A stretch of DNA of 62,425 bases, filler included, from Basidioascus undulatus (lineage: Eukaryota): the NCBI GenBank assembly GCA_000826855.1. It is 6 parts of 6 records of this genome, joined end to end, with 100 filler letters (N's around TTAATTAATTAA, not from the genome) between each part and the next. Parts side by side here need not be neighbours in the genome. Positions count along the whole stretch, not along the records: positions 7,012 to 13,921 come from JTLS01001656.1; 5 more parts are not named here. The stretch is one strand, 5' to 3'. Shown here piece after piece: positions 3,581-41,611 of the stretch; the stretch's first letter is position 1; the number at the start of each line of letters is the position of its first letter. Position numbers and translations under genes: made by a program. The notes beneath the pieces were generated by a model that saw nothing but the letters and a program-made list of their open reading frames with translations, had not been told where the DNA came from and searched no databases.

Positions 3581-3679
3581 AGTCCCACCCCACCCACCGA
3601 CGGCCCAGTGAAGAGGAGAAGTACGCGAGCGAGCGGACTATCCCGTCTCGCCTTCCTACTCAAAAGTCCTCCTCCTCCT

Positions 3680-3845
3680 CATCCTTCTCTACTTCCGCTC
3701 CTAACTGAGGGCTGAAGGACAACGCACTTTTCGTCTGCTCTTCCGCTCCTCCTCGTCGTCCCCGCCTATGAACACGCCAGGGTCGAACTGCGCGCGGGGT
3801 GGGCGTCCGTCAGCCCTCAGTTAGGAGCGGAAGTAGAGAAGGATG
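3680..3845. repeat. Inverted repeat with arms 3680-3720 and 3805-3845 in two Med19 introns
   Basis: CATCCTTCTCTACTTCCGCTCCTAACTGAGGGCTGA (3680-3715) is the exact reverse complement of 3810-3845. The match extends to 41 nt with one mismatch. Confidence 0.95.
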
Positions 3846-4359
3846 GGGGAGGAGGGGAGAAGAGGGTGGAGAATCGGGGCGGGGTTTGGGAGGCGGAGAG
3901 GGCGCAGAGGGGAAGGGGAAGAAGAGAAGGCGGCGCACCCCGACTATGGGACCCGGCGGCAGCGAGCCAAAGCTCTCTCTGAGCGTGGCAGGGTCGAAGG
4001 GCGCGATAGGCGGGTGCGACAGCTCAGGCGCGAAGAGGAGGTCGTTGAGGAAGGTGTCCTTTTTGATGGAGTTGCGTCCTGTCATCCCGTTCCCCGGCCC
4101 CTCATCAGGCTCAGCATCCCCCTCCCGCAGGACGAGGAGGGACCGACGCACCGGGCACGTCGCTGATAAACCCCTTGTAGCTCGTATCCATCTTGGCCCT
4201 CTTCTCCTTGGGCTTGTTTCCCCCCTCCTCGGCCGGAGCATCTGTCCCGCCTTCGGGCGGAGGAGGAAGCTTGGGTGGCTTGATGTACGGGCGGACGTAG
4301 CGGTCGTACGCGGGGAGGAGGTCGAAGCGTGCGAGGAGGTCGTGGGCGCCTGTAAGCGG
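3728..4359 (-). CDS. MED19: Mediator subunit Med19/Rox3 (no own start codon visible; 3' end uncertain)
   Basis: Exons 4359-4152, 4078-3939 and 3787-3728 give [24 protein letters not shown]...[29 protein letters not shown]...[14 protein letters not shown]...FDPGVF, matching the basidiomycete Med19 pattern. Introns are GT-AG. Confidence 0.8.
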
Positions 4360-6911: not shown

Positions 6912-7011
6912 NNNNNNNNNNNNNNNNNNNNNNNNNNNNNNNNNNNNNNNNNNNNTTAATTAATTAANNNNNNNNNNNNNNNNNNNNNNNNNNNNNNNNN
7001 NNNNNNNNNNN
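6912..7011. other. Artificial contig linker
   Basis: N44-TTAATTAATTAA-N44, with stops in all six frames. Confidence 0.98.
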
Positions 7012-8914
7012 AAAAGCGCGCACCTCCGACGTAGAAGATAGCGACAGCGCCACCGGCAGCACCAATCATGAGGATCATCCGACGACCGAGGTTGTCGATC
7101 ATCCTGCGCATGGAGAGGGCGTCAGCCTGCAGCCGGATGAAGTTTCCCGAAGGACTCTACTCACCATCCGAGCCAAACGAAGGCCATAACAGTCTTGATG
7201 ACACCGAAAATACCAGTGGAAAGAAGTCCGACGTTGGTGCCCGTGATGCCCATGCTACGGTTGTTGAACGTCAGGTACCTATACTGTGCTCAGAACCGCC
7301 GGTATAACTTACGACTGGAAGACGCGCGGCGAGTAGTAGTTGATGGCGTTCTACGGTTGTAGAACGTAAGAGACCTGTGCTGTTCTGTGAAAATACTGAA
7401 GAGCTCACAATACCGGTGCCGTTCTGGAAGAGGAACATGGAGCCGCCGAGGAGGACACGCTTGAGAATGCGCTTGGTGCCGAACACGAGCTTGAACGGGA
7501 CCCAGAACCCAGTGCCGTGGGCCTGCTCGTGGGCGATTTGGGCGTCCTAAGAGAAAGGAACGACGATGAGCGGCGGGCCGGAATCGAGGCTAGTCGGCAG
7601 TCGCTTACGATCATCGCAATCTCCTCAATCATGTACTGGTCAGTCGGCTGGAGCTTGCGGATCCACTGTAGGTAGGGTTTCGAATTGGACTCCGCGTCAT
7701 GAGATCAGATTGAACGATGCTCGACGCACGCAAAGGTTGCTGAGAGCCTCCTCGCGGCGACCCTTGCTCAGAAGCCAACGCGGCGATTCCTTAATGTAGA
7801 AGGAGCCTCTATAGGGAAACAGCCACTCGGTCAGCATTTTATGGAACTGCTGGAGGAGAGAGTTGCTTACGCGGCAAGCATGCCTCCGGGAATGAGCTGG
7901 ACGGCTGTGAGGGGTACACGAGCGTTAGGCGCATTGTGCAAGGCGGGAGCGCAAGTCACACGCACCGAAAGGAATGAGCCACTGCCTGTGGCTGGGCTCC
8001 ATCGTGGTGTTGACGCCGTAGTTGATCCAGAACCCGACAAGACCACCGAACTGCCAGCCGAGCTCGTAGAGACCGACGAGCTGTAGGACAACAGCTGAAT
8101 TGAGCTGGGCCTGCGAAGAGTCCAAGCGTCGAAGGCGTACCTGACCACGGATCGCAGGCGGGGAAATCTCAGAAATGAGAATGGGGGTAAGGTTGGAGGC
8201 GGCGCCGATAGCAAGGCCAGCAATGACACGGCCACCCTGTGCAGTAGGCGAACGTCAGTCTTCAGCAGATCTAGTCATCAGCGACGAGCGGCACTCACGT
8301 AGATGAGACCCAGGCCACGGTCGCCGTTGGCGCCAAGCATCATGCCGGCGCCAACAGTGAAGAGCATGGAAGACGCCAAAAGACCCCACTTGCGGCCAAG
8401 CTGCTGACCGACAACGTAGCCGAGGAGAGCACCGAAGAAGCAGCCTGTGCCAACGGATCAAAACTTCCTTCGTATGCTGCCTCAGGTGAACACAAACATA
8501 CCAGCTTGATAGCAACTGACGATGTTGGCTGAAATAAGGTCGGTCTCCGATTTGGTCATGGACCCGAAGTCGAACTCCTTCTTGAAAGAGCCGAGTGCGA
8601 GAGTGCCACCGATGAAGGCCCTGTCCCGATCGAGGATGAGCGAGCCGCACGAAAGCGATTGCTTTGGGGCCACTTACGAGTCATAACCAATCATGACCGC
8701 AGCAATCGAGGCAACGCTGGCGATGAGGTCTAAAAAGCCAGGGACACAATCAACAGCTGTCCAGCCAAGTGGCACAGCAGACACTCACAAAGGCGGACGT
8801 TGTAGACACATCTCGGCGTCGGCCGGTCTTCAATCTGATACCGGGTCCTAAGTCAGCATGTTCAAACTTGATGTGAGCGTGTGCGACAGCAAGCCTCACC
8901 TTCTTCAGCGTCAT
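7012..8914 (-). CDS. qutD: Quinate permease-like MFS sugar porter, N-terminal two-thirds (runs off the contig start)
   Basis: MTLKK|IEDRPTPRCVYN, MIGYDS|AFIGGTLAL, NIVSCYQAG, SEISPPAIRG|QLVGLYELGWQFGGLVGFWINYGV, ESPRWL, FQNGTGI|NAINYYSPRVF and IDNLGRR match the QutD/Qa-Y pattern. More than 10 short GT-AG introns. Confidence 0.9.
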
Positions 8915-11457
8915 TCTGTCGCAAAGAGGAGAGGCCACGAGGTTGGAGGTTTGAGAGCAGGGGAGTCGAGTGCGAGGTTGGCGGGACTTGATGAGGGAGT
9001 GGGCGGTGAGCGAGTGCGGCGCAGATGCGAGGACGCGGAGGGCAAAGAGAGGGACGAGGAAAGAAATCGTGTTGGATGCACAAGTCTTTATACCACCTTC
9101 CGGATCATCTTGAGGCAGCTGGAGGAGTTCTCCTTTGCGGAGGTCGAGCAAAACGCCTCGTCTGGGGTAACGGCGTCTCGAGCGTTCTCGGCGTCCAGCC
9201 ACAACTGTAAGGAACAAGCTCATCGGCACGTGTTCCCCGCACTGCAGAAGGTCCCGCGCTAGTCCAGATACTTAAAAAGTCCGGGGACCCGGGGAAAAGA
9301 ACCTGGCACACAAGCTGGGGCGCCGCAGGATCATCTCTATTCCCCGCGGGGCAAGGTGGGGACTGTCAGTCCATTGTCGCCGCCGACTGGCTGCTTGTCG
9401 ATCAACAGACTGCAGACATCAACCTCCTGAAGACCAGAGCGCATGGCGGTCAGCAGTTCAGACACGGTCAGGAAATCGATATTTTGGCTGGTTCGGTTCC
9501 GCAACGTCAATGCCAAAGGTACAAGGAGCACGGGATAAAGGAGCACGGGATAAAGCTCTTCAACGCGCGGCCATCGGCCCATTGCATCGAGGGATCGGCC
9601 ATCGCATTCGAATTTCCGATGCTGTCTTATCGTCCCTGACTCTCGAAACTTTGCCAGGTTTTTCAAGAGGAAAATTTGCCCCTGAATACAAATGTGTCGA
9701 GGATATGTACCCGCTGGATAAATCCCAGAGAACACCTGGTGGATGGAGGTTCTGGTGGCCGAAGACAAGGCGACGCTCTACGAAGTCACCAGAACTGGCC
9801 TGCCAGATTGGAACTCGACCTCACTATGAAATGTGTGTTTGCAAAGAATCTATACAGCGCTAATGCAGCTCTAACAGCGATGCGAGTCTCCGCCGTAGCC
9901 TGCTCAAGAGCGAGGTTCGCGCGCGGGGGCGTGTAACACGCAAGAGTCTGGGAATATGAACAAAACAAGATGGGCAATGCCACTGCCACATCCTCCGTCG
10001 TAGCCACGGCCGCTACCACGGCTACCGCCCCCGCCGAAGGACGCTGGGGATGCGACATGTCAACGCTCTAAGGTGGATAGACAAAGACAGGCACGCTGAA
10101 CATGCCCGTCTGCTCCAGCTCAGGCCGAATTACCTGATTCTCCTCGCTTAAGGTCTTGACGAGGTTGCGCATAATCTGGAAGTTGCCGTTGGTGAAGACA
10201 GTGTACCTGGAGCAAGGTTGGGACGTGTCAGAGTCGAAGGTCCAAGAAGGCCCCGATTAACGTTGGGGGCACCTGTATGATACCATAGTGAGCGGAGCAA
10301 GTGGAGCAGGGACATACGGCAGCAATGCAGGATAAGAGAGCTCCCGCTCTTGAAGTCGCCCAGCACAGTACGTTCGCGGTCCTGCTGGAGAGCGGGACAG
10401 CCGTGCTGCCGGAGGTACTTGCAGAGGTCGTCCGCGGTACGCTCCCCCCCCCCCCGCGACCTGGGATCATCAATGGCCTCAAAACACAGAACATTACCTT
10501 CAAGAGACACCCAGGGGCAAGCAGGAGGAATAAAAAGAGGCCGACGGCCCATGGACAGTCCGCCCGTGCCGCAATGCACGCTCGACTCGAGCGAAGAAAG
10601 CGGCCTGATGTGAGGGAGTAGGCACGGAGCAAGCACAGGCTCCAAGCCGAGGGATATCTCTGCTTCTACGTTCCCTTTGGATCTGCGCTTCAAACCACTC
10701 CCAAAGTCCAACACGCGTCGTCCAGGACAAGTAGACCCGTCTTGCATCGTTGGGGACAGCCAGGTGTCGTCTGAACTCCCTCTGGCTTTAAATGAAAAGC
10801 TTGTACTAGTTATACAGTATATCCGGCTTAAATGAAAATCGCAAGGCGTCGATCTCCTCTCACTGTTACACTCACCGCAGCGCATCCCGCAAGACAGCTT
10901 GAATGCGCCCACGTTTGGAACACTCAGTTAGCTTCATCAATCATAGCACAATTGGCGGGTCCTAAAATCTCGGTGATTCACATTGCTTATGATAAAATTA
11001 CGTTGTTGCTCATTGACAGACGTTCACCATCCACCCCCCACGAGACTGTCACGATGCTGCAGTTTCACGCCCGAAGACGAAAAGTGAAGTATCGTGGGCA
11101 ACACCTCAACTTTGGGAGAGGTTTCAAAGAAATTCCGTAGAGATAGTTGTACTTCATGTGCATTTACCGAACATATAAGTCAGACTAGGACGTGGACGTG
11201 TGGGACTATCTGCGACAACGCTGGACCTGGAGATGCACATCGAGCCTATCTCTGTGTATCAAACCTCAACTATGATTCTTTCAGAAGTGGAAGTGATAAA
11301 TTTATCTGTATATATCCTGCCTCCGATGCCCAATGTACGACTCAAGCGATAATTTGCCGACAGACAAACAAGGTCGAAACCGGGAGTTGCCTGGAGCTCA
11401 ACCGCGTCGGCGCCCAAGCTCGCGACGTTCAACAACACTCATCCGCATCCTCCATTT

Positions 11458-11977
11458 ATGTCTTCCTCCACGCCCTCCGCTACGCTGAAAGCGGCCACGC
11501 CGCTCAAAACCAAGTCCGGAGCAGCAACCTCCCCAGCCTCCGCATCCCGAATGAAAACCAAACTCGACGGCGTGGGCGATATCAGCAGCCCGCACGAGCT
11601 CACCGCGTTCGTGTGTCGCCGACTCTGCAGCCCCATCACCCCATGTAGTCCAGGATTGACACTGTGCCGCGGGCCATGATCCAGGTGGAAACGCTCCTGA
11701 CCAATCTGGAAGCGCGGTTCGACGACATGTCCACGCAGGTCCTCGATCGAAGTGAGGCCTTCCTCTCCCCAGCCTACACCGCGCGCCGACGAAGCTCATC
11801 TCCCTGCCGGCAAAAGTGAACGAGATGTCCGACCGCGTCGACAACCTCGAAGCGTCCATACAGGACCTTATTTCCTCATCTGGTCCGGCGTCCGCTGGCG
11901 CATCACCAGGGCCGAAGTCGGCGTCGTTCCTGAAGGGTCTCCGGGAATCGCGGGACGGCGGGGAGGAGGCAGGATGA
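11458..11977 (+). CDS. HSBP1: Heat shock factor-binding protein 1 (HSBP1 family)
   Basis: Exons 11458-11610, 11685-11751 and 11817-11977 give ISSPHELTAFVETLLTNLEARFDDMSTQVLDRMNEMSDRVDNLEASIQDLI, the HSBP1 coiled-coil signature. Confidence 0.9.
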
Positions 11978-12878
11978 GGCGAGGCGGAGTTGTAAGAGAT
12001 GGGGAGGCATCAGAGGCCCGGTCGTACGTTTGATACCCCTTGCATTTCATTTGGATCCCGACAGGTTCTCGATGTGCACCTGGGGTGGGAAGGAAGACAT
12101 CGAGGCTGTCGCTCACCCTCATCGATCACATCTTTCTTTCGTTGTCGCTCATCCTACTTTCGTCGAGACATCACATTCGCTCGGATTGACAAGTGAGCAC
12201 ACTTACCTGCTTGTGGTTAGTGTCATCGTTCGGGAATCCCGCGGAACTGGCTGATCGCATGGCAGGCTATCGCCCTACAGTCTCGAGGAGACTGACCTCC
12301 CCCTCATGGGTGGACTCATCCCTTTGCACGCCCATTCATGCGCTTTCCTGCCCTCGATTGAACGGTCACACACCGGCACTTTTGCGGCTCTCTTCCGCTT
12401 GTCGCCTCGCACGCCCACGAGCCTGACGAAGGATCTCGGTTCCTTGGTCCTGGGGACCGCCTTCCTTTCTGCAATAGCTGGGATATAAGGGATATATATA
12501 TACCCTAGCCTGGATTCGAATCTGGTGTTGCGTGTGCAGCTTGCGACTGGCCCCTTTGTCCTCGGCTGACATATCAGGGCTCGACTGGAGGGGTTCGATC
12601 AATGGGCCTGGCCTGCCCTATCGGGAGAGACCTCATCGGGCGGTGGTACTTCACTCTACAGTCTCCCCTCGGGACGCTGCGGCCGCCGCTGCTTCCCGCA
12701 GAAAGATTCTTACTCTGTGCAAGGTGCGATCCCCGGAATGGGGTCCGGCTGACGGTTGCGCAATCCGCCTCCGCCTCCCGCGTGCCCCAGGACCAGCTTC
12801 AAGGAATATTGCGCAACAACATGCAATGCTGACCAAGACCTGGTTGTAGCTTGACGTCCTCTCAATGCGCGCAGGATT

Positions 12879-13921
12879 GACAACCTCGGTCGTCGGATGA
12901 TCCTCATGATTGGTGCTGCCGGTGGCGCTGTCGCTATCTTCTACGTCGGAGGTGCGCGCTTTTATTAATTGTCAGATTAATCACTTCTTGTATTCTTATT
13001 GCCCCTCGCCCTCCCTCCTCCCCTTCCCTGTATTGCCTCTCGCCCTCCCTCCCCCCCAGGTTACATCGCCATTGCCAACCCCCAGCCCTCTGCGGACGCG
13101 GATATTACGCCAGGCGGGATCAGCGCTATGTGTTTCTTCTACATCTGGACCGTCTTCTACGCCGCCACCTGGAATGGAACCCCCTGGGTCATCGGCGCCG
13201 AGATCTTCCCCCAGAACGTCCGCACGCTCACTCAGTGCGTCCCTCCTCTCCTACCTCGGCTTGAGCGCCATGAACACCTCCGCTGACACTCTTGATGTTC
13301 TTTTTGCCCAGAGCGCTCATGGGTGCGTTCCCCTTCCTACCTCCTACCTCCTACCTCCCACACCCCTCCTACCTCGCCCCGAACGCTCCGAACGCCCCCG
13401 CTGACCCTCCTGACGTTTGTTTACATAATCCAGCTGCCAATAACTGGTTCTGGAACTTCTTGATTGCTCGTACGTCTGAAAAGAGAGAGAGAGAGAGAGA
13501 GGGAGTGTGAAGGAGGCTAACCTCGCACCTTTCCCCGACCTCACAGGCTTCACGCCCCATGTAGATCATTTTCTGATCATCTTCTGATCATCCCATACTG
13601 ACTCTTGTGCTACTTCGCGAGATGTTCACGGATATGGGGTACGGTGTCTACATCTTCTTCGGCTGCATGATGATCATTGCGGTGGTCTTCGTGTTCTTCT
13701 TCCTCCCCGAGACCAAGGTAAGCGTGTTTCTGCGCCAGCATCCGCCTTGCAGTCACTGACCTTTGTCCACCTCTCCTTCAGGGTATCCCTATGGAGGAGA
13801 TGGACCGTCTCTTCGACGGCGGCCTGAAGCCCTGGAAGGCGCACGGCATCGTCTGGCCCGAGATCCAGCGCGAGCGTGCGGCGATGCAACACAACTTCGA
13901 TCTCGGCTCGAAGGGCGCCTC
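12879..13921 (+). CDS. qutD: Quinate permease-like MFS sugar porter, C-terminal third with no upstream exons
   Basis: DNLGRRMILMIGA...FFYIWTVFYAATWNGTPWVIGAEIFPQNVRTL...ANNWFWNFLIARFTP...YGVYIFFG...FFLPETKGIPMEEMDRLF. The first 85 nt are the exact reverse complement of 7012-7096. Confidence 0.85.
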
Positions 13922-14021
13922 NNNNNNNNNNNNNNNNNNNNNNNNNNNNNNNNNNNNNNNNNNNNTTAATTAATTAANNNNNNNNNNNNNNNNNNNNNNN
14001 NNNNNNNNNNNNNNNNNNNNN
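13922..14021. other. Artificial contig linker
   Basis: N44-TTAATTAATTAA-N44. Confidence 0.98.
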
Positions 14022-16889: not shown

Positions 16890-18800
16890 CCTTTGAAAGA
16901 AATTTATGTCAACCAGTATGTCTGCCGGCAAATCCATGGTGGACATGTCCACATAACTGACATGTCCAGTGGGAATTGCCATGTTCACTGGCATGTCCAC
17001 TAAGCTGTCCACTGAGATATTGGCTGCCATGTCTGCTGGGAAGTCCACTGGCATGTCCATTGGCATGTCAACTGAGCTGCCCACATAGCTGTTGGCCACC
17101 ACATGTACTGACATGTCCAACTGAGATGTCATGGGCATGTCAACCTGCATGTTGTCCGGGACGTCAACTATGATGTCAACCGGGATGTTGACTGGGATGT
17201 CCACCATGAGTCGACTGGGATGTCCACCAGGATGTCCACCAGGATGTCAACTGGGATGTCAACTGGAATGTTGACTGAGGACTGGGACATCAATGGAGAA
17301 GTCCAGTGGGATGTCGACCAACATGTCCCCTGGAATATCCACTTAAATCATAGGCCATCCACTGCCACAATGGTGCAATCAAGACATGCAACCTTCATGT
17401 CAGACCACTGCACAAGGACCACAATGTCATGCTCAACCAGATCTGCAACAGAGCAGGTGTGACTGCATGGCAGAGGAGCACCAGACCATTGAATGCAGTG
17501 ACATGGACACGCTAAACGTGGTGACTGGGGTACCTTGTCCTGACCATGTTCCTGCCTGGTGACCCCAACAGTCAGCAGGTCCATGAGCCCCACATGGTAG
17601 TGAGTGCTCACCTCACCCACACCAATTTTGTCATTGCTACATGCCTCTCCAACCAGGGCTGGAACTACAATATCCCCTGGATCAGCACCTGGGTCACCCT
17701 TGTTGCATCCAGGACACACTCAACTGACAGGCAATCAGTGACCCTTGCCTTGCCCCAATGCCTGCCTGGAAACCCTCCCCTGTCATGCCAGCCTACAGCA
17801 CCAGCAAGGACACTTTTCTGTCTGGGACACTATTATTTCTGGGACAGATTTCTGTGGAGGACACTTTTCTGTCATAGGACAAAATTCTGTCTGCAACACC
17901 TTTCACCAGGATGCCTACTGGGATGTCAGCTGAGATGAATGTCCACTGAAATGTTGAGTGGGATGTTGACTGGGATATCAACTGGGATGTCCACAGTCAC
18001 TATAATGGCAGGGCCTTGCCGGCACACTAAAGACAGCTGCATACCGGTGCCAGTGTACTGTTGCTTTTGCTTACCCATGTGCAATTGGGCTCCAGTCATG
18101 CTGACATTAGCTGTTCCTTCCACAACAGTATTGCTCAAGTACATATCACCACTGGCTCAATTCCATCAAGACAGACGGCAATGTCTTGAGTGCCGTTAGA
18201 ACCAGATGCTTGCAGTTTCTGTCTGAAGTTTGCTGGTTTCGCCGTACATGCAGCAGCATCTGTGCAACTCATATGGACATGCACCGGCAGCTGCCCAGTT
18301 CATATGGATAGATGCCATAGTGGTACAGCCAATCATATTGGATGTATTGTTGTGTGCTGTAGTTCTATGGCCAATCAAAATGCACACATTTGTGCAGAAT
18401 GTAGGAGTCACAACGAGGCAAGACATGTGGGGCTGTGCATATGGATGGTTGGATGGTGGCACAGCGTACCACTCCTGAGATGGAATGACACATCCAGCTC
18501 ACCTTCCAGACAGTAGCAAGTATAGGGGCAATGAGGATTGACGGCCAGTGTGCAATATCCTGCAGGCAGGGTCAAGCACAAGTCTGAGTCCAGGCAATGG
18601 CAAACAGGGGTGATGGCAACAAGGGAAGGGGCGTTGGAGAGCATGCAGGGGAAGCCATCCAAGGGCACAATGTAAGTGGTGTAGGTCGGTGAGTTCACCA
18701 GAGATAAAGGGCGTGATTGAGAGCTGGAGGGGGAGGGCGCAGGCATGTGTGATGGAGCATGTAAGAGGGTGAGTGACAGGACAGCTGACCTTTAAGTCCA
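16890..18800. mobile_element. CpG-depleted repeat or transposon relic with degenerate 12-nt tandem arrays
   Basis: Arrays of units such as GGGATGTCAACT, GGGATGTTGACT, GGATGTCGACC and GGCATGTCCACT at about 16905-17335 and 17909-17994. GGACACTTTTCTGTC is repeated within 17808-17891. The region is visibly TG/CA-rich and CG-poor relative to flanking genes. No transposase or termini identified; boundaries are approximate. Confidence 0.5.
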
Positions 18801-20930: not shown

Positions 20931-21030
20931 NNNNNNNNNNNNNNNNNNNNNNNNNNNNNNNNNNNNNNNNNNNNTTAATTAATTAANNNNNNNNNNNNNN
21001 NNNNNNNNNNNNNNNNNNNNNNNNNNNNNN
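20931..21030. other. Artificial contig linker
   Basis: N44-TTAATTAATTAA-N44. Confidence 0.98.
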
Positions 21031-27933: not shown

Positions 27934-28033
27934 NNNNNNNNNNNNNNNNNNNNNNNNNNNNNNNNNNNNNNNNNNNNTTAATTAATTAANNNNNNNNNNN
28001 NNNNNNNNNNNNNNNNNNNNNNNNNNNNNNNNN
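27934..28033. other. Artificial contig linker
   Basis: N44-TTAATTAATTAA-N44. Confidence 0.98.
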
Positions 28034-30101: not shown

Positions 30102-33100
30102 TTAGAGAGTTTGGGACTGGGGGATGCGGGGCACGATAGATGTCGCGTCACCTGCTGCTTTAGATCATGTATACCCGTGTGAGCTGATGGAAGTGAGGCA
30201 GGCAGACTTGTCCTGGATAAGATGGCAACAAGCACGAGCGAAGCGATGCGGCGCGAGCTATTGCTGTCTTCTGAGTGGGCCCGTCCACACTGCAGGACGG
30301 CTCAGCGACTAGACCCTTTCTCTTTGGGATGCACTAGAGCTCGTAGTCCAGCAAAGCATGTGAAAATGTCCGCACTGAGCAGTGCAATCGCTGCATCTTC
30401 AACGGCTTCGGTTCAGTCTTTGCCGGCTTACCTACGCACCATCTTCCTCAGCCTTTCACACCTCCTCCCAGGTTATTGCCAACGTTCGTACGTCCCGGTA
30501 GCCCAACCTACTCGTGGACTTGTTTGCCTTCCTCTTTCACCGCCCATGGCGCTTTTGTGCTTAGTAACGAGTTCTTGCTTACCTATCATACGTCTGACTG
30601 CGTGCCCCTCGACCTCACGGTGTCGCTCGCGCAGGAGGTCGTACCTCACTGCACTGCCGCAGAGATGGAACGTCCAGAGCTGTTTGGACGTCAGGTCGGT
30701 ATACAATGGCGCTTTTGTGCTTATTCTCCAGTTCACGCACTTTGCTCGGGTGCCTCGAAGCTTGGTGCCACCTGCCCCTGCCCTTCGTGGAGTCGCTCGG
30801 GACCTCGCACGAGGTATCCAAGTGCGGGGGTAATTCTCCTCCTTCCAACAGACCACATAAAATACAGCCCTCAACCGCATCTGTGCATCCCCGGGATATC
30901 TTCCACTCTCCTAGCACTCCTGGCCAGGCGCCACTTCCCGCACTTCCTACGTTTCCAGCTATTCCCATACATTCGCTTGTACGCCCTTCCCCTCATCAGC
31001 TCTGAGAACCACAAGCACTTGCTAACAAGAGCACCATCTTACCACCCCACAGAAGCAAATCCACCATGTCCGGCAATCCGCAATACACGCCTCCCCTCTC
31101 GCCCTTCGGTCTTGGCCGACCCTCCTCGAGCGGCGGTGGGGCGCACGGAAGCTCCACGGGCTGGGGAAACATTGCTGGTTCTTTCTTCGGCGGAGGGAGT
31201 GGGCGCCTCAGGGTCGACGAGCAAGAGCTTGGAGTGGGCTGGGCCGCTTGGGCGGGGCTGTGACTTAGTCAACGGGTGTTTGGAGGCGGCTGGGCCGCGG
31301 CGGTGATTTCGGGTTCGGGGTTTCAAAAGGGAGGTGCGCAGGTTTACACTCGGCTGGACCGGCTTGTGGTGTCAGAACATGCACGAACAGTGCCTGCTCC
31401 CCTTGCTCGGCGAGCAATCTTGAGTGACCAAGGGCACCCGCAGCGCCCACACTGACAATGGGTTAGAAATATGAAAAAAATAAGTAATGCAGTCTTGAAG
31501 AGGTGTGGAATCGCCGCCAATGAAAGGGACGCGCAGAAAACCTCTGCCGGGGCCCAAGGGCCGGCGCAAGAAGTCGCCAGCGTCCTGCAGCGACAATCCT
31601 GAATGTTCCGTACGATTGGCTGGCTGAAAACACTGATCCGAAAGCTCGTTACCCACCCACTGAACAATACTGAGAATCATTGACTCCGTCCGCATAGGGG
31701 GCATAGCTTCACTTTCACTGGATTTCAACCCATGGACCTCTCCATTACCGCAACAGCTAACTCCACGTTGCCTCAAGAAGGTCCTGTGGTAACCAGTGTG
31801 ATCCTTCTCCATAGAAACCGGGTCTTCGACGTGCCACATTGACGCAAAGGGGCTGTGCCTCTTGGCTGCAAGTGTTTGCATCTTCAAGTGAACAACACTA
31901 TTCCTCTTTGGGTGAAAACAGTTGCAGACCATTTACACATAACAAGTCTTCTGAAAAGTGAAGCATTACGGCGGCGTCGACCTTTGAATATTGGAGTAGC
32001 AGGACACGCTGCAGCAGCCAGCCGCAATCCAAGCCGACTGCTTCGCAGTCTTCTGTGTCCTCATCCCAACTTTCCGACAGCTTCTCGAAGGCCATGACGA
32101 AGTAATTCAGTGTGGGTATTGGGGGGAATAATCCAATACATGGAAAATGTCGGTGCACTACGCCCTTCACTGCCTTCACTGGCAGGCTTCGCAGCTTCAG
32201 AGGCGCGCTAAACATGTCCAGACTGATGCTGCAGAGACTCTCTTTCAAGCCTCTCACATTCTCTCAACTGAAAGTGTGAACGCAAATCCCAAATGGTCTG
32301 CCGAGCTGACTCACGGCAACGCCAGGCTACATACCTCTTCCATCAATGACCATCGACGTTGAAGGACGCAGTTCGCAGAAAATGTAGCATGCACGCAGTG
32401 GGGCGGTCAGTCAAGCTCGCCGTACGAAAATCAATGCTACGCATGATGTACATTGGGACTGGGGCAGGAAACAAGGTCTTCCTCTCTGACTTTCTGTCCT
32501 TGGCGAGATCCGCGCCCAGGCATGCCGACGCACTCTTCGACGACGTCTGCGCTCGGAGACGCGGCGATAGTTGAGCGACTCAACAAAACGCCGAAGCAGA
32601 CCACTTTAGTTTCAGGCTGCCTATGAAAAAAAAAGTATGGATGGTGTTGAGTCCTCCGCAGCACAGCAGGACGACATCTGACAAGCGGTGTCTGGTGGTG
32701 ACCGTCTCGCAGTCGCTTCGCGACAGGGATTCTTGCAGTTTCTGACCAGGCAAGACTCAAGGAGGCTGTCTATACAGCCATCCAAGCAAAAATTATGCTA
32801 GCCGGTGGTGCACCACGGCTGACGCGTAGTATTGTTTTGCACAATGCCTCCGTCGTCGTCGGCAACCAAGGAACGGACTGAGGCATAAGAGCAGACCAGC
32901 AAGCCTTGCGAGCAGCTGCAGGCTAGCTTAGAGGTGTGGAGTTCATTTCAGCAACATTTCCAGTCCAGCGCCTCGGAAGCTGGTTTCGTAGTAATCCTTG
33001 TCGGAGGGAAGCCAAGGTTGGGGACACCTTGGGAACGCGCCCCGCGAACTTCAAGCTGGAGCTCCTTGGAGCTCCAGTTGGCTCCAGCCCTTACTCTCCC

Positions 33101-34936: not shown

Positions 34937-35036
34937 NNNNNNNNNNNNNNNNNNNNNNNNNNNNNNNNNNNNNNNNNNNNTTAATTAATTAANNNNNNNN
35001 NNNNNNNNNNNNNNNNNNNNNNNNNNNNNNNNNNNN
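34937..35036. other. Artificial contig linker
   Basis: N44-TTAATTAATTAA-N44. Confidence 0.98.
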
Positions 35037-39135: not shown

Positions 39136-41611
39136 ATGCTGCAGTCACTATCCAAGTCGCCCTTATCGTCTCCACAACTGCTCCGCTCGTCCAGACCGAT
39201 TTCACTGCCGCCTAAACCCTTCCGTGCGGCTCGCCAATCGCACACCCACGCCTCCCACCCATCACCATCACATTCTTCCCGGACCCCGTACTACCTTCTA
39301 CTTCTCATACCCAGCGGTCTCTGGCTCCTCCACACCCCGACTGCTCCCCCATCTCAACCCGTCTTCTCCCATCCCGCCCTCATCCCTTGCCGCCCTCAAC
39401 CGGTCGTCTCGGCGTCTTCCCCTCTCGAAAACTCCCGCTCTCTCTTCCGCCGCTTCATCCTCGAACCGCTCTTCATCCTCCGCCGCTCCCTATGGCTCGC
39501 GATCCTGTTCGCGCCAGTGATCCTCGGCGTGCCGATGCTGTGGCTCGGCAAGAAGGGCCCTCGGATATGGTATCGACTGTTAACGGCGCAGATGGCGAGG
39601 GCAGGGCCGACTTTCATCAAAGTACGTAAATAACTCCAACATCCTATGTGGACTCTGAAGCTGACGTGCTCTCCAGCTTGGCCAATGGGCTGCGTCTCGC
39701 ACCGACTTGTTTCCGCCCGAGCTCTGCCACACTCTCGGCAAGCTGCACTCCTCCGCGCGCCCTCACCACCTCGCGCATACGCGCCGCGTCCTCACGCGCA
39801 CGTACGACGGCGCCGACAACCTCGACGACATCTTCGAGGCCTTCGACCCGCAGCCGATCGGCTGCGGCGCGATCGCGCAGGTCTATCGCGGCACGCTGAA
39901 GGAGGACGTCGTCCCGAGCGAGTGGGGCACGCCGAAGAAGCGCTCGCGCGAGGGCGTCGTCGGCGAGATCGTCACGGGCGTTTTGGAAGAGGAAGGCGAC
40001 CGGTGGGAAGGCGACCCTCCGAGTCGGGAGGTCGCGGTCAAGGTTCTGCATCGTGAGCATCATACGGCATTTCATACTGCTGGGTTAGAGTCAAGCTCAC
40101 CGAAGTTCGCAGCGCACGTCGCCGAGTTGATCGAGCGCGACCTCAAGATCCTCCACCTCGGCGCGACGCTCATCACGCTCATCCCCGGCATGCAGTGGCT
40201 GTCATTGCCAGAGGAGGTCGAGGTCTTCGGCGACTTCATGCGCTCCCAGCTCGACCTCCGCAACGAGGCGCGCAACCTCCGCCGCTTCGAGGACAACTTC
40301 CGCGAGCGACGTGGCGCGGTGAGCTTCCCGCGCCCTGTCGAGGGCCTGTGCGGCCGCGAGGTCCTCGTCGAGGAGTTCGAGGACGCTCTACCGCTAAAGG
40401 CGTTCTTGCGCATGGGCGGCGGCGGGTTCGAGGAGCGGATAGCGGGGCTTGGGCTGGACGCGTTCCTGGTAAGCCGGGTGGGTCTTCTGAGGGCGAGCGA
40501 CTGTTGACCTCCTTTTCTTTCCTCAGAACATGCTGCTCATCGACAACTTTGCGCACGCCGACTTGCACCCAGGTGCGCTCCCTTCTCCTTTCTCGTGCGA
40601 CTTCCTTCCCTTACCTCGGAGCTTGTTGCAGGCAACATCTACATCAAATTCTACAAGCCCTCTTCCTCCGACCTCTTCAAAAACATCCTCTCCTCCCTCT
40701 TCAACCGCCCCCGCTCCCAAACCGACCTGGCGATGTCCGACTCGTCCGAAGCGATCATCAAGCGCCTGCTGCCGCTGGTGCGCACGCACTCGCGCGAAGA
40801 GTGGCTCGCGGCGCTGCGCCTGCTCGACGAGCAGGGCTACCAGCCCGAGCTCATCCTCATCGACACCGGGCTCGTCACGGAGCTCGACGAGGTCAACCGC
40901 CGCAACTTCCTCGAGCTCTTTCAGGCCGTCGCCGAGTTCGACGGCTACCGCGCGGGGAAGCTCATGGTAGAGCGCTGCCGCACGCCCGAGCTCGCCGTCG
41001 ACCCCGAGACGTTTGCGCTCAAGATGCAGCATCTCGTCCTCGGCGTCAAGAGCAAGACGTTCACGCTGGCCAAGATCAAGATCTCCGACATACTGTCGCA
41101 GGTCCTCAGCGCCGTTCGCGAGCACCATGTCAAGATGGAGGGGGACTTTGTGTATGCTGCGGTATTGCTTGTCTTCTAAAGTCCGAAGAGCTCACCAATT
41201 TCTGGAATCGTAGCAACACTGTCATCTCGATCCTGCTCCTCGAGGGCATCGGCCGCCAGCTTGATCCCCAGCTCGACCTCTTCAAAGCCGCGCTTCCGAT
41301 CCTGCGTCAGCTCGGCAAACAGATGGGCACGCGGGAGTCCATCAGCCAAGTCCCTCGTGGCGACCTCGGTGCTATGCTGAAGGTGCGCCGTCCAATTCCT
41401 TGCCTGGCCGACAGAGGCTTTCCTGACGCTTTCGTTTCGCCCGCGCGAAGATCTGGGTTTATTTGGAGGCTCGTTCTTTGGCTTCCTCGGTGCTCGACAC
41501 GGACAACTTGATCAAATACGACTGGTGTGTGACCACTTTGTGTCTAAGTAACTTGAACGCACAGTTGGCTGATCTCTTCGGTGTTTGCTCAGGCTGTCGC
41601 CGAACGTCTGA
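39136..41611 (+). CDS. ABC1/UbiB atypical kinase, ADCK2/Cqd1 (YPL109C)-like
   Basis: AGPTFIK|LGQWAASRTDLFP, PIGCGAIAQVYRG, VAVKVLH, QLDLRNEARNL, MLLIDNFAHADLHPG|NI, IDTGLV and EGIGRQLDPQLDLF. Basic, Ser-rich presequence-like N-terminus. Confidence 0.93.

What the first reader, a model, noticed from the sequence alone, without database searches (positions are those of the whole stretch)
7255..7408. Sister introns I: two consecutive 58-nt introns of the quinate permease are homologous
Seen: introns 7255-7312 and 7351-7408 are both exactly 58 nt and match at 40/58 positions without gaps (hand count), including 16/17 at the acceptor end. The 38-nt exon between them (NAINYYSPRVFQS) is normal conserved protein and does not resemble the neighbouring exon, so this is not an exon-plus-intron tandem duplication. 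Known: introner-like elements spread between genes, and intron transposition or reverse splicing is a proposed but rarely documented gain route. Inference: an intron was copied precisely to a nearby site in the same gene, or neighbouring introns undergo conversion. This is the best candidate here for an undescribed process.
Basis: partly seen in the sequence, partly recalled or inferred. Interest (0 to 1): 0.72.

Follow-up and report, generated by a model that had tools for sequence, protein, structure and literature searches.

The report
Neighbouring introns copied within one gene
Two neighbouring introns of a fungal sugar-transporter gene are diverged copies of each other, and a second such pair lies in the same gene family nearby; this is a rare but already described way for a gene to gain an intron.

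Summary
Introns 7408-7351 (A) and 7312-7255 (B), minus strand, are both 58 nt and match at 40/58 without gaps, 16/17 at the acceptor end. Both are real. Removing them gives a protein colinear with full-length quinate-permease-like homologues, and contigs of run X3 skip exactly both. With splice signals masked, 29 of 44 positions match (P about 1e-8). The pair scores 20, against 6.6 +/- 1.5 (max 13) for 169 other intron pairs. Similarity stops at the intron borders, and the flanking exons are not duplicated.

I found a second, unrelated sister pair, 13235-13311 and 13323-13433, around an 11-nt micro-exon in a 3' copy of the same gene. No other copies occur in the window. Of about 90 metagenomic homologues, none has introns on both sides of the 38-nt exon. 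One shares position A and none shares B.

Best reading: intron-precise copying to a nearby site, probably A to B. The route is inferred, with reverse splicing favoured. The kind is known: the 'same gene duplications' of fungal introns (PMC3609843). It is a new member of a known kind, not an undescribed process.

The parts
7351..7408 (-). Intron A (11th intron of the permease gene), 58 nt, GTGAGC...CTTAC...CCGTAG, phase 0 between Ile299 and Asn300. Probable parent copy.
   Evidence: Its removal restores colinearity with P0011/P0022. An X3 contig skips 7351-7408 exactly (joint 7350->7409, 'skips 58, CT..AC'). The same position holds an intron in metagenomic homologue L072.
7313..7350 (-). Exon 12, 38 nt, encoding NAINYYSPRVFQ(S). 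It lies between the sister introns.
   Evidence: Colinear with homologues without an insertion. Not similar to exon 11 or exon 13. Present in the 71-nt spliced X3 contig.
7255..7312 (-). Intron B (12th intron), 58 nt, GTAAGT...CTGAC...CCGTAG, phase 2 in the Ser312 codon. Probable daughter copy.
   Evidence: 40/58 identical to A. X3 contigs join 7254 to 7313 (table 8 and loose end). This exact position was found in 0 of 90 homologues.
7012..8914 (-). 5' 372 codons of a quinate-permease-like MFS sugar transporter gene. It has 13 introns of 57-65 nt and is cut at the scaffold end, 7012.
   Evidence: Gene model. The spliced protein is 61% identical to P0011 (225/368) and 60% to P0022 (205/342). 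Exon 5 hits Pfam Sugar_tr PF00083.
13235..13311 (+). Intron C, 77 nt, phase 2. First member of a second sister pair.
   Evidence: the repeat finder family D9. Masked local score of 30 against D. Gene model colinear with P0011.
13312..13322 (+). 11-nt micro-exon between introns C and D.
   Evidence: It is needed for the colinear reading VRTLTQ-ALM-AANNWFWNF against P0011.
13323..13433 (+). Intron D, 111 nt, phase 1. Homologous to C, with an extra CCTAC-rich stretch near its 5' end.
   Evidence: 60 nt at 75% identity to C.
12852..13921 (+). 3' part of a permease gene copy (from the end of intron 13 onward), running off the scaffold end.
   Evidence: 123 nt (12842-12963) are 91.9% identical, inverted, to 7134-7012; a 113-nt core (12852-12963 against 7124-7012) is 94.7%. 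The spliced translation is 50% identical to the C-terminal half of P0011.

Best explanation
A and B are paralogous spliceosomal introns. One of them was copied, exactly from GT to AG, into a site 38 nt away in the same gene, and both copies were kept. The parent is most likely A, whose position is shared with a distant homologue. The same kind of event happened independently in the 3' part of this gene family (C/D, 11 nt apart) with an unrelated parent sequence.

The mechanism I commit to is inferred, not shown. An excised intron reverse-spliced into a nearby position of a transcript of the same gene. The product was reverse-transcribed and returned to the gene by short-tract recombination. 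This is 'intron transposition within the same transcript'. The copies then diverged to 69% (A/B) and 75% (C/D). The near-identical 3' end of A/B may reflect constraint or later short conversion.

Shown: homology, intron-precise borders, both introns spliced, no exon duplication, and a second pair. Inferred: the direction A to B, the RNA route and the timing. My confidence that this is a local intron-precise copy is about 0.85. My confidence that the route was RNA-mediated is about 0.45. The figure given is for the whole statement.
For: - Homology: 40/58 ungapped; 29/44 with signals masked, P 1.2e-8; masked local score 20 against 6.64 +/- 1.50, max 13, for 169 other pairs; 0 of 5000 shuffles reached it.
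- Intron-precise borders: flanking 12-mers match at 2/12 and 4/12 for A/B, and 2/12 and 1/12 for C/D. Exon 12 and the micro-exon are not like their neighbouring exons.
- The protein is colinear with homologues across both pairs, so no exon sequence was added.
- Both introns are removed exactly in X3 contigs, in both sequence variants.
- The two highest-scoring of 171 intron pairs are both adjacent pairs, 2 of 17 adjacent (P about 0.009). A/B and C/D are unrelated to each other (scores 6-9), so these are two events and not one mobile family.
- No further copy occurs in 62 kb.
- Length and folding energy are ordinary: z 0.42, -0.32, 1.14, -1.10.
- No direct repeat occurs at the borders (read).
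- Direction: L072 shares positions near 20, 37-40, 126, 234 and exactly 299 (A) with this gene, but lacks B, C and D. B's exact position occurs in 0 of 90 homologues. C and D occur in 0 of 33 loci and in 0 of 3 informative fragments.
- A second variant in the same runs carries both introns. At the 10 sites where the two variants of A differ, B agrees with one or the other at 8 or 9 (hand comparison), as expected if B is an outgroup copy.
Against: - Identity is only 69%, so the event is old and mechanistic traces may be lost.
- No genome-wide search was possible, so a dispersed family is excluded only for 62 kb.
- All homologues found are distant (67% identity or less), so B could be older than it looks.
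- L003 and L088 have an intron 1 nt from B and L058 has one 2 nt from B. That could mean an old intron that slid.
- The cDNA route should tend to delete the parent. Keeping A requires a recombination end within 38 nt, and keeping C requires one within 11 nt. That is awkward.
- Neither insertion site resembles a proto-splice site (read).
- Identity is mosaic, 18/20 at the 3' end against 22/38 elsewhere, which one duplication date does not explain.
Confidence: 0.5

Rival explanations
1. DNA-level local copy. A break in the exon was repaired by copying nearby sequence (templated insertion, or slippage), and selection kept only an insertion that happened to be spliced out exactly.
For: - The daughter lies very close to the parent (38 and 11 nt), as templated repair would give.
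- This route avoids the problem of keeping the parent intron.
- Short-tract exchange does occur at this locus: a 111-nt stretch (7243-7353) shows no difference between two variants that differ at 6 of 42 and 5 of 52 nt in the flanking exons.
Against: - The borders of similarity coincide with GT and AG in both pairs. A DNA process has no reason to respect those borders.
- There is no microhomology or direct repeat between the flanks of source and target (read).
- Two independent exact events would be needed.
Confidence: 0.2
2. A and B are two members of a dispersed introner-like family that landed next to each other.
For: Introner-like elements exist in fungi and decay into ordinary-looking introns (PMC3609843). 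Only 62 kb of a genome of about 35 Mb could be searched.
Against: - No third copy was found by blastn-short, nhmmer (best other E 0.73) or the 17-mer with up to 3 mismatches.
- The window self-comparison shows only A/B and C/D as intron similarities.
- Length is ordinary and there is no stable fold.
- A/B and C/D are unrelated, so two families would each have had to land twice side by side.
Confidence: 0.08
3. Two unrelated old introns were made alike by gene conversion between neighbours.
For: Identity is mosaic, 18/20 at the 3' end. There is evidence of short identical tracts between variants at this locus.
Against: - Conversion needs prior homology.
- The 5' core is also significantly similar (18/32, P 1.8e-4).
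- The other 15 adjacent pairs are no more alike than the 154 non-adjacent pairs (Mann-Whitney p 0.94).
Confidence: 0.07
4. Chance, or shared splicing constraints.
For: All introns of the gene share donor, branch and acceptor motifs and a narrow length range. CTGACG also recurs in introns 5 and 13.
Against: With signals masked the match is still 29/44 (P 1.2e-8). It lies about 9 sd above 169 control pairs. The second variant has 4 changes in A's last 17 nt, so that stretch is not strongly constrained.
Confidence: 0.02
5. Tandem duplication of an exon-plus-intron segment (96-nt period).
For: The start-to-start spacing is 96 nt, a multiple of 3.
Against: The protein is colinear with homologues without an insertion. 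Exon 12 is unlike the adjacent exons: 164 to 1706 of 2000 shuffles score as well.
Confidence: 0.02

Closest known systems
Same-gene duplicated introns (SGD) of fungi, the subtype without exon duplication (Collemare, van der Burgt & de Wit 2013, PMC3609843; section 4 and abstract read)
   Same: Similar introns confined to one gene. Length and folding energy are like those of ordinary introns. The flanking exons are not duplicated. The authors ascribe such cases to intron transposition within the same transcript.
   Different: - The published set was 'near-identical' by BlastN. These pairs are older (69% and 75% identity).
- Here the copies are immediate neighbours, separated by only 38 and 11 nt.
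- There are two independent pairs in one gene family.
- Confinement to one gene could be tested only in 62 kb.
Intron transposition by reverse splicing (review by Yenerall & Zhou 2012, PMC3443670; passages read)
   Same: The copied unit is exactly an intron, already carrying donor, branch and acceptor. It was inserted at a position without an intron in relatives.
   Different: No RNA intermediate is shown. The parent was retained 11-38 nt away, which the cDNA recombination step does not readily predict. The review lists only 14 unambiguous events (Mycosphaerella, Oikopleura) and no in vivo demonstration.
Introner-like elements of Dothideomycetes (PMC3609843)
   Same: Introns that multiply and then decay into ordinary introns.
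   Different: ILEs occur in hundreds of copies in unrelated genes, are about twice as long as regular introns and have stable predicted folds. Here there are two copies each, of ordinary length, with fold z-scores between -1.1 and +1.1.
Intron gain by tandem genomic duplication of an AGGT-containing exon segment (PMC3443670)
   Same: A local duplication produces a new intron without changing the protein.
   Different: In that model the new intron is made of exon sequence. Here the new intron is a copy of an intron, and no exon sequence is repeated.
Duplicated intron in the Drosophila Xdh gene (Tarrio, Rodriguez-Trelles & Ayala 1998, 'New Drosophila introns originate by duplication'). Recalled; only the title phrase was seen, as one occurrence in PMC1626080.
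   Same: As I recall it, a new intron derived from a pre-existing intron of the same gene.
   Different: An animal gene. The details were not checked here.

Membership tests
U2-type GT-AG spliceosomal intron | GT...AG borders, a branch motif, and exact removal from the transcript | tested here: met
   GTGAGC/GTAAGT donors, CTTAC/CTGAC branch motifs and TAG acceptors. X3 contigs join 7350 to 7409 and 7254 to 7313, with zero depth inside both introns. The spliced protein is colinear with homologues.
Same-gene duplicated introns (SGD), non-segmental subtype | Sequence-similar introns within the same gene | tested here: met
   A/B 40/58 and C/D 60 nt at 75%, both far above 169 control pairs. They are more diverged than the published 'near-identical' set, whose BlastN threshold I did not see.
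Same-gene duplicated introns (SGD), non-segmental subtype | No similar introns in unrelated genes | tested here: inconclusive
   None in the 62-kb window. The whole genome is not held.
Same-gene duplicated introns (SGD), non-segmental subtype | Exon sequences on each side not duplicated | tested here: met
   Flank matches of 2/12, 4/12, 2/12 and 1/12. Exon 12 and the micro-exon are not similar to their neighbours. There is no insertion relative to homologues.
Same-gene duplicated introns (SGD), non-segmental subtype | Length and folding energy like non-duplicated introns | tested here: met
   A and B are 58 nt, against 57-65 nt for the gene's 13 introns. Fold z-scores are 0.42, -0.32, 1.14 and -1.10.
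Introner-like elements (ILE) | High copy number in unrelated genes | tested here: inconclusive
   No further copy in the window. The genome is not available.
Introner-like elements (ILE) | Longer than regular introns, with a stable predicted secondary structure | tested here: not met
   A and B are of typical length. No intron of either pair folds better than its shuffles: 125, 62, 183 and 27 of 200 shuffles fold at least as well.
Transposon-type introners | Target-site duplication and/or terminal inverted repeats | tested here: not met
   The exon bases beside each border differ from the intron's terminal bases, so no direct repeat is possible (read). No inverted repeat within or around A/B was found among the three reported for the gene.
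Segmental (exon plus intron) tandem duplication | Repeated exon sequence beside the repeated intron | tested here: not met
Intron transposition by reverse splicing | Copy is exactly one intron, inserted at a site that is intron-free in relatives | tested here: met
   Borders are exact. B's exact position occurs in 0 of 90 homologues. C and D occur in 0 of 33 loci and 0 of 3 fragments. These relatives are distant (67% identity or less).
Intron transposition by reverse splicing | RNA intermediate, reverse transcription and recombination | not testable with these tools
   No trace is expected in the sequence.

The most novel reading that the evidence does not exclude
This lineage has a strictly local intron-copying process. 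The daughter lands 11-38 nt from a parent that is kept, and this happened at least twice in one transporter gene. The process creates micro-exons and contributes to the gene's unusual intron load (at least 13 introns in 372 codons, against 0-5 inferred in about 90 homologues). It may be reverse splicing into the nascent transcript of the same gene, or an unknown DNA-level route. Either way it would be distinct from dispersed introner spread.
Probability: 0.25. Interest if true: 0.65.

Novelty: new member of a known kind. Interest (0 to 1): 0.45.

Why it matters
How new spliceosomal introns arise is still unsettled. A 2012 review counted only 14 unambiguous intron-transposition events and no in vivo demonstration (PMC3443670).

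This locus gives two independent, intron-precise, same-gene copies whose parents are retained at 38 and 11 nt. That geometry constrains the models. It is hard to reconcile with long cDNA conversion tracts, and it is incompatible with exon-derived tandem duplication.

The genome also holds a second, diverged variant of the gene carrying both introns. A full-genome and sister-species comparison could therefore date the events and test whether local copying is general in this fungus.

Tried and rejected
- Whole genome: none is held, so the all-against-all intron test could not be run.
- Sequencing runs: no RNA holder was listed. The three runs found are the probable source sample or samples and give no independent strain or sister species.
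- Laying contigs at 80% likeness on 7200-7460 showed no extra pieces on the introns beyond the two variants.
- Protein searches with exon 11 ('longer') and with the read-through ORF 7274-7546 ('near') found nothing, so no close relative was obtained for the A/B region.
- My first splice-path script and open-frame intron scan were useless in this GC-rich sequence.
- A stricter window-wide intron scan recovered only 7 of the 19 known introns and was dropped. The ORF list was not used. I therefore give no count of introns or adjacent pairs for the other genes of the window.
- The regex for continuity in the C/D region flagged all 33 loci as interrupted because it was too strict. I read the printed translations instead.
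- A 13-nt exact match to B at 11424-11436 is not in an intron context and is within chance.
- Other nearby direct repeats (30546/30706 and 36671/36789) are not intron pairs.
- Rfam gave no hit in any of the four introns.
- Pfam gave no hit for exons 11 and 13 alone.

Full report
**Setting.** The window is not one stretch. It is six pieces joined by N44-TTAATTAATTAA-N44 linkers. The finding lies in the piece 7012-13921. On the minus strand a gene starts at ATG 8914 and runs off the piece at 7012. I placed 13 introns by hand, at 8899-8835, 8788-8730, 8677-8621, 8501-8445, 8298-8237, 8140-8081, 7965-7905, 7870-7809, 7729-7666, 7608-7547, 7408-7351 (A), 7312-7255 (B) and 7164-7104. The spliced 372-residue product aligns colinearly with two longer proteins found by a whole-library search with exon 5: P0011 (546 aa, 225/368 identical, 2 gap positions) and P0022 (205/342). 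Exon 5 alone passes the Pfam cut-off for Sugar_tr, PF00083.

**Observation.** A and B are each 58 nt. They align without gaps at 40 of 58 positions and at 16 of the last 17.

**Both are genuine introns.**
- There is no gap in the alignment to P0011 or P0022 at ...QNGTGI|NAINYYSPRVFQS|MGITG....
- In run X3, a 71-nt contig holds 12 nt of exon 13, all 38 nt of exon 12 and 21 nt of exon 11, with 7255-7312 and 7351-7408 missing.
- Two 190-nt X3 contigs join 7254 to 7313.
- X3 depth inside both introns is 0.
- The tool labels X3 'DNA?' as a guess. Its contigs behave like transcripts. It comes from the same sample as DNA run X2.

**More than chance.**
- Among the 78 pairs of the gene's 13 introns, A/B matches 31 of the last 40 nt. 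The other 77 pairs give a mean of 13.0, sd 3.15, max 22.
- With donor, branch and acceptor masked, 29 of 44 positions match where 0.249 is expected (P 1.2e-8).
- The 5' core (18/32; controls 8.07 +/- 2.58, max 15) and the 3' core (15/17; controls 5.14 +/- 1.98, max 10) are each significant alone.
- In local alignment with the first 6 and last 3 nt removed, A/B scores 20. The 169 control pairs give 6.64 +/- 1.50, max 13. None of 5000 shuffles reached 20.

**Borders.** The similarity ends at the splice sites. The 12 exon bases beside the donors match at 2/12, and those beside the acceptors at 4/12. Exon 12 is no more like exon 11 or exon 13 than shuffled sequence. Reading, the last exon base and the last intron base differ at both introns, and so do the first intron base and the first downstream exon base. 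There is therefore no target-site-like direct repeat and no ambiguity in the borders. Because the protein is colinear with homologues, a 96-nt exon-plus-intron tandem duplication is excluded.

**A second pair.**
- A window-wide search for short-range direct repeats and a self-comparison gave only one other intron-like similarity: 13245-13304 against 13363-13422, 60 nt at 75%.
- It lies on the plus strand, in a 3' part of a permease gene copy (12852-13921).
- That copy's first 123 nt (12842-12963) are 91.9% identical, inverted, to 7134-7012 (a 113-nt core is 94.7%).
- I modelled six introns there. The spliced translation is colinear with the C-terminal half of P0011 (85/170 identical).
- The similar sequences are introns C (13235-13311, 77 nt) and D (13323-13433, 111 nt). 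They flank an 11-nt micro-exon that is needed to read VRTLTQ-ALM-AANNWFWNF.
- C/D scores 30 with signals masked, and none of 5000 shuffles reached that. The exon flanks match at 2/12 and 1/12.
- A/B and C/D are unrelated to each other (scores 6-9).
- Of 171 pairs among the 19 introns, the two best are both adjacent pairs, 2 of 17 adjacent (P about 0.009).
- The other 15 adjacent pairs are no more alike than the 154 non-adjacent pairs (Mann-Whitney p 0.94).

**Dispersed copies.**
- In the window there is no third copy. This was tested by blastn-short, by nhmmer with an A/B profile (best other hit E 0.73), and by the terminal 17-mer with up to 3 mismatches (2 matches, both the introns themselves).
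- A 13-nt exact match at 11424 is not in an intron.
- The whole genome is not held. This test therefore covers only 62 kb of a genome whose contigs total about 35 Mb.

- By flanking translation, 91 are family members. L022 and L074 were false positives of my regex, and L089 is cut short downstream. Some loci are near-duplicates of each other.
- 65 read straight through from ...QNGxGI to ...TGxFG.
- 14 have an intron just upstream of the motif. Only L072 has one exactly at position A. Eleven have one 4-5 nt further upstream, within the Gly codon.
- 11 have an intron shortly downstream, at several positions. L003 and L088 have one 1 nt from B, and L058 has one 2 nt from B. None has one at B's exact position.
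- None of the 90 complete loci has introns on both sides.
- All are distant: 67% identity or less, with 0-5 introns inferred by an approximate HSP-chain method.
- L072 shares intron positions with this gene near residues 20, 37-40, 126 and 234 and exactly at 299 (A). It reads through B, C and D.
- In the C/D region, 33 loci reached the NWxWNF motif. My automatic flag was too strict, so I read the printed translations. None has an intron at C or D. The nearest is L068, 4 nt from D.
- Three protein fragments at 62-68% identity (P0052-P0054) also read through both positions.

A therefore looks like an older position. B, C and D look lineage-specific, with the caveat that no close relative was available.

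**A second variant in the same runs.**
- In DNA runs X1 and X2 the stretch is covered by two sets of contigs at about equal depth (17-20 each in X1, 47-50 each in X2).
- The second variant differs from the window at 6 sites in 7201-7242 (exon 13) and 5 sites in 7409-7460 (exon 11).
- Within intron A it differs at 10 listed sites and has about 10 inserted letters.
- A single 111-nt contig without differences spans 7243-7353, covering all of intron B and exon 12. Its depth is 0.6-0.8 of the sum of the two variants, so one or two collapsed differences cannot be excluded.
- Both variants appear spliced at both introns in X3.
- I compared by hand at the 10 sites where the two versions of A differ. 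B has the window's base at 5 (7354, 7365, 7366, 7380, 7400) and the other variant's base at 3 (7361, 7397, 7403). It has neither at 7394, and 7388 is ambiguous.
- B thus behaves as an outgroup to both versions of A. The copy predates their split, and A's acceptor-proximal 17 nt were then probably identical to B's.
- Four changes have since accumulated in those 17 nt of A, so that stretch is not strongly constrained.
- I cannot tell whether the second variant is an allele, a homeologue or a paralogue.

**Mechanism.** The data call for a process that inserts exactly one intron's worth of sequence a few dozen bases from its source, twice, from two different sources.
- Exon-derived tandem duplication and segmental duplication are excluded.
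- A transposon-like introner is not supported: there is no terminal repeat, no target duplication and no stable fold (z-scores 0.42, -0.32, 1.14, -1.10), and length is ordinary.
- Conversion alone cannot create homology. It may explain the mosaic identity (18/20 at the 3' end against 22/38 elsewhere).
- The route that is intron-precise by nature is reverse splicing of an excised intron into a transcript of the same gene, followed by reverse transcription and recombination. I favour it at about 0.45.
- Its weak point is that the parent was kept only 38 and 11 nt away. That requires very short recombination tracts, or insertion into a still-unspliced transcript.
- A DNA-level templated copy filtered by selection is the main rival, at about 0.2.

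**Known kinds.**
- Collemare et al. 2013 (PMC3609843; abstract and section 4 read) classified multi-copy fungal introns into ILEs, low-copy introns and 'same gene duplications' (SGD).
- SGDs comprised 82 introns in 11 of 24 species, with length and folding energy like ordinary introns.
- Half of the SGDs have duplicated exon flanks. [quoted passage not shown]
- The pairs here fit that second half on every feature I could test.
- Yenerall & Zhou 2012 (PMC3443670; passages read) describe reverse splicing into 'its own mRNA'. They list 14 unambiguous transposition events and no in vivo proof.
- Croll & McDonald 2012 (PMC3514964; passages read) found no such similarity in Fusarium or Cryptococcus. 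They note that no general model explains adjacent gains.
- This scan has already reported the same kind of pair in another fungus's DUR3 gene (finding e1-7585159; not tested here).

**Verdict.** The interpretation as a local intron copy is supported. The claim of an undescribed process is not. This is a new member of a known, rare kind, with moderate interest because of the unusual geometry and the recurrence in one gene.

Noticed in passing
window 6912-7011, 13922-14021, 20931-21030, 27934-28033, 34937-35036: The window is six separate pieces (five of about 6.9 kb and one of 27.4 kb) joined by N44-TTAATTAATTAA-N44 linkers. Neighbouring pieces need not be adjacent in the genome.
   Followed up: partly
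window 7012-7134 and 12842-12963: An inverted partial duplicate covers the last 31 nt of intron 13 plus exon 14 of the permease gene: 91.9% identical over 123 nt, with a 113-nt core at 94.7% and a 3-nt indel. One copy sits exactly at the scaffold end, which suggests that the assembly broke at a repeated 3' gene part.
   Followed up: partly
window 7243-7353: A 111-nt tract (intron B plus exon 12) shows no difference between two variants of the gene that differ at about 10-14% in the flanking exons and more in intron A. This points to a short conversion tract or a very recent common origin. The contig's depth is intermediate, so 1-2 hidden differences are possible.
   Followed up: partly
window 13547-13560: A further micro-exon of 14 nt lies between introns 13470-13546 and 13561-13621. 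The latter has an unusual GTAGAT donor. These two introns are not similar to each other (score 5; model).
   Followed up: partly
loci L003, L005, L007, L010, L013, L026, L055, L058, L072, L082 and others: Across about 90 homologues, the 60 nt around the NAINYYSP motif carry introns at roughly ten different positions. This looks like a hot spot of intron gain or sliding in this transporter family.
   Followed up: partly
window 16900-18010: A long array of diverged repeats with a 12-nt period (units such as TGGGATGTCCAC), probably coding.
   Followed up: no
window 30546-30574 and 30706-30734: A 29-nt direct repeat at 86% identity, 160 nt apart (ATGGCGCTTTTGTGCTTA...). It is not an intron pair and is unexplained.
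   Followed up: partly
window 3671-3855 and 39930-39965: Palindromic self-matches (187 nt at 67% and 36 nt at 83%) appeared in the window self-comparison.
   Followed up: no
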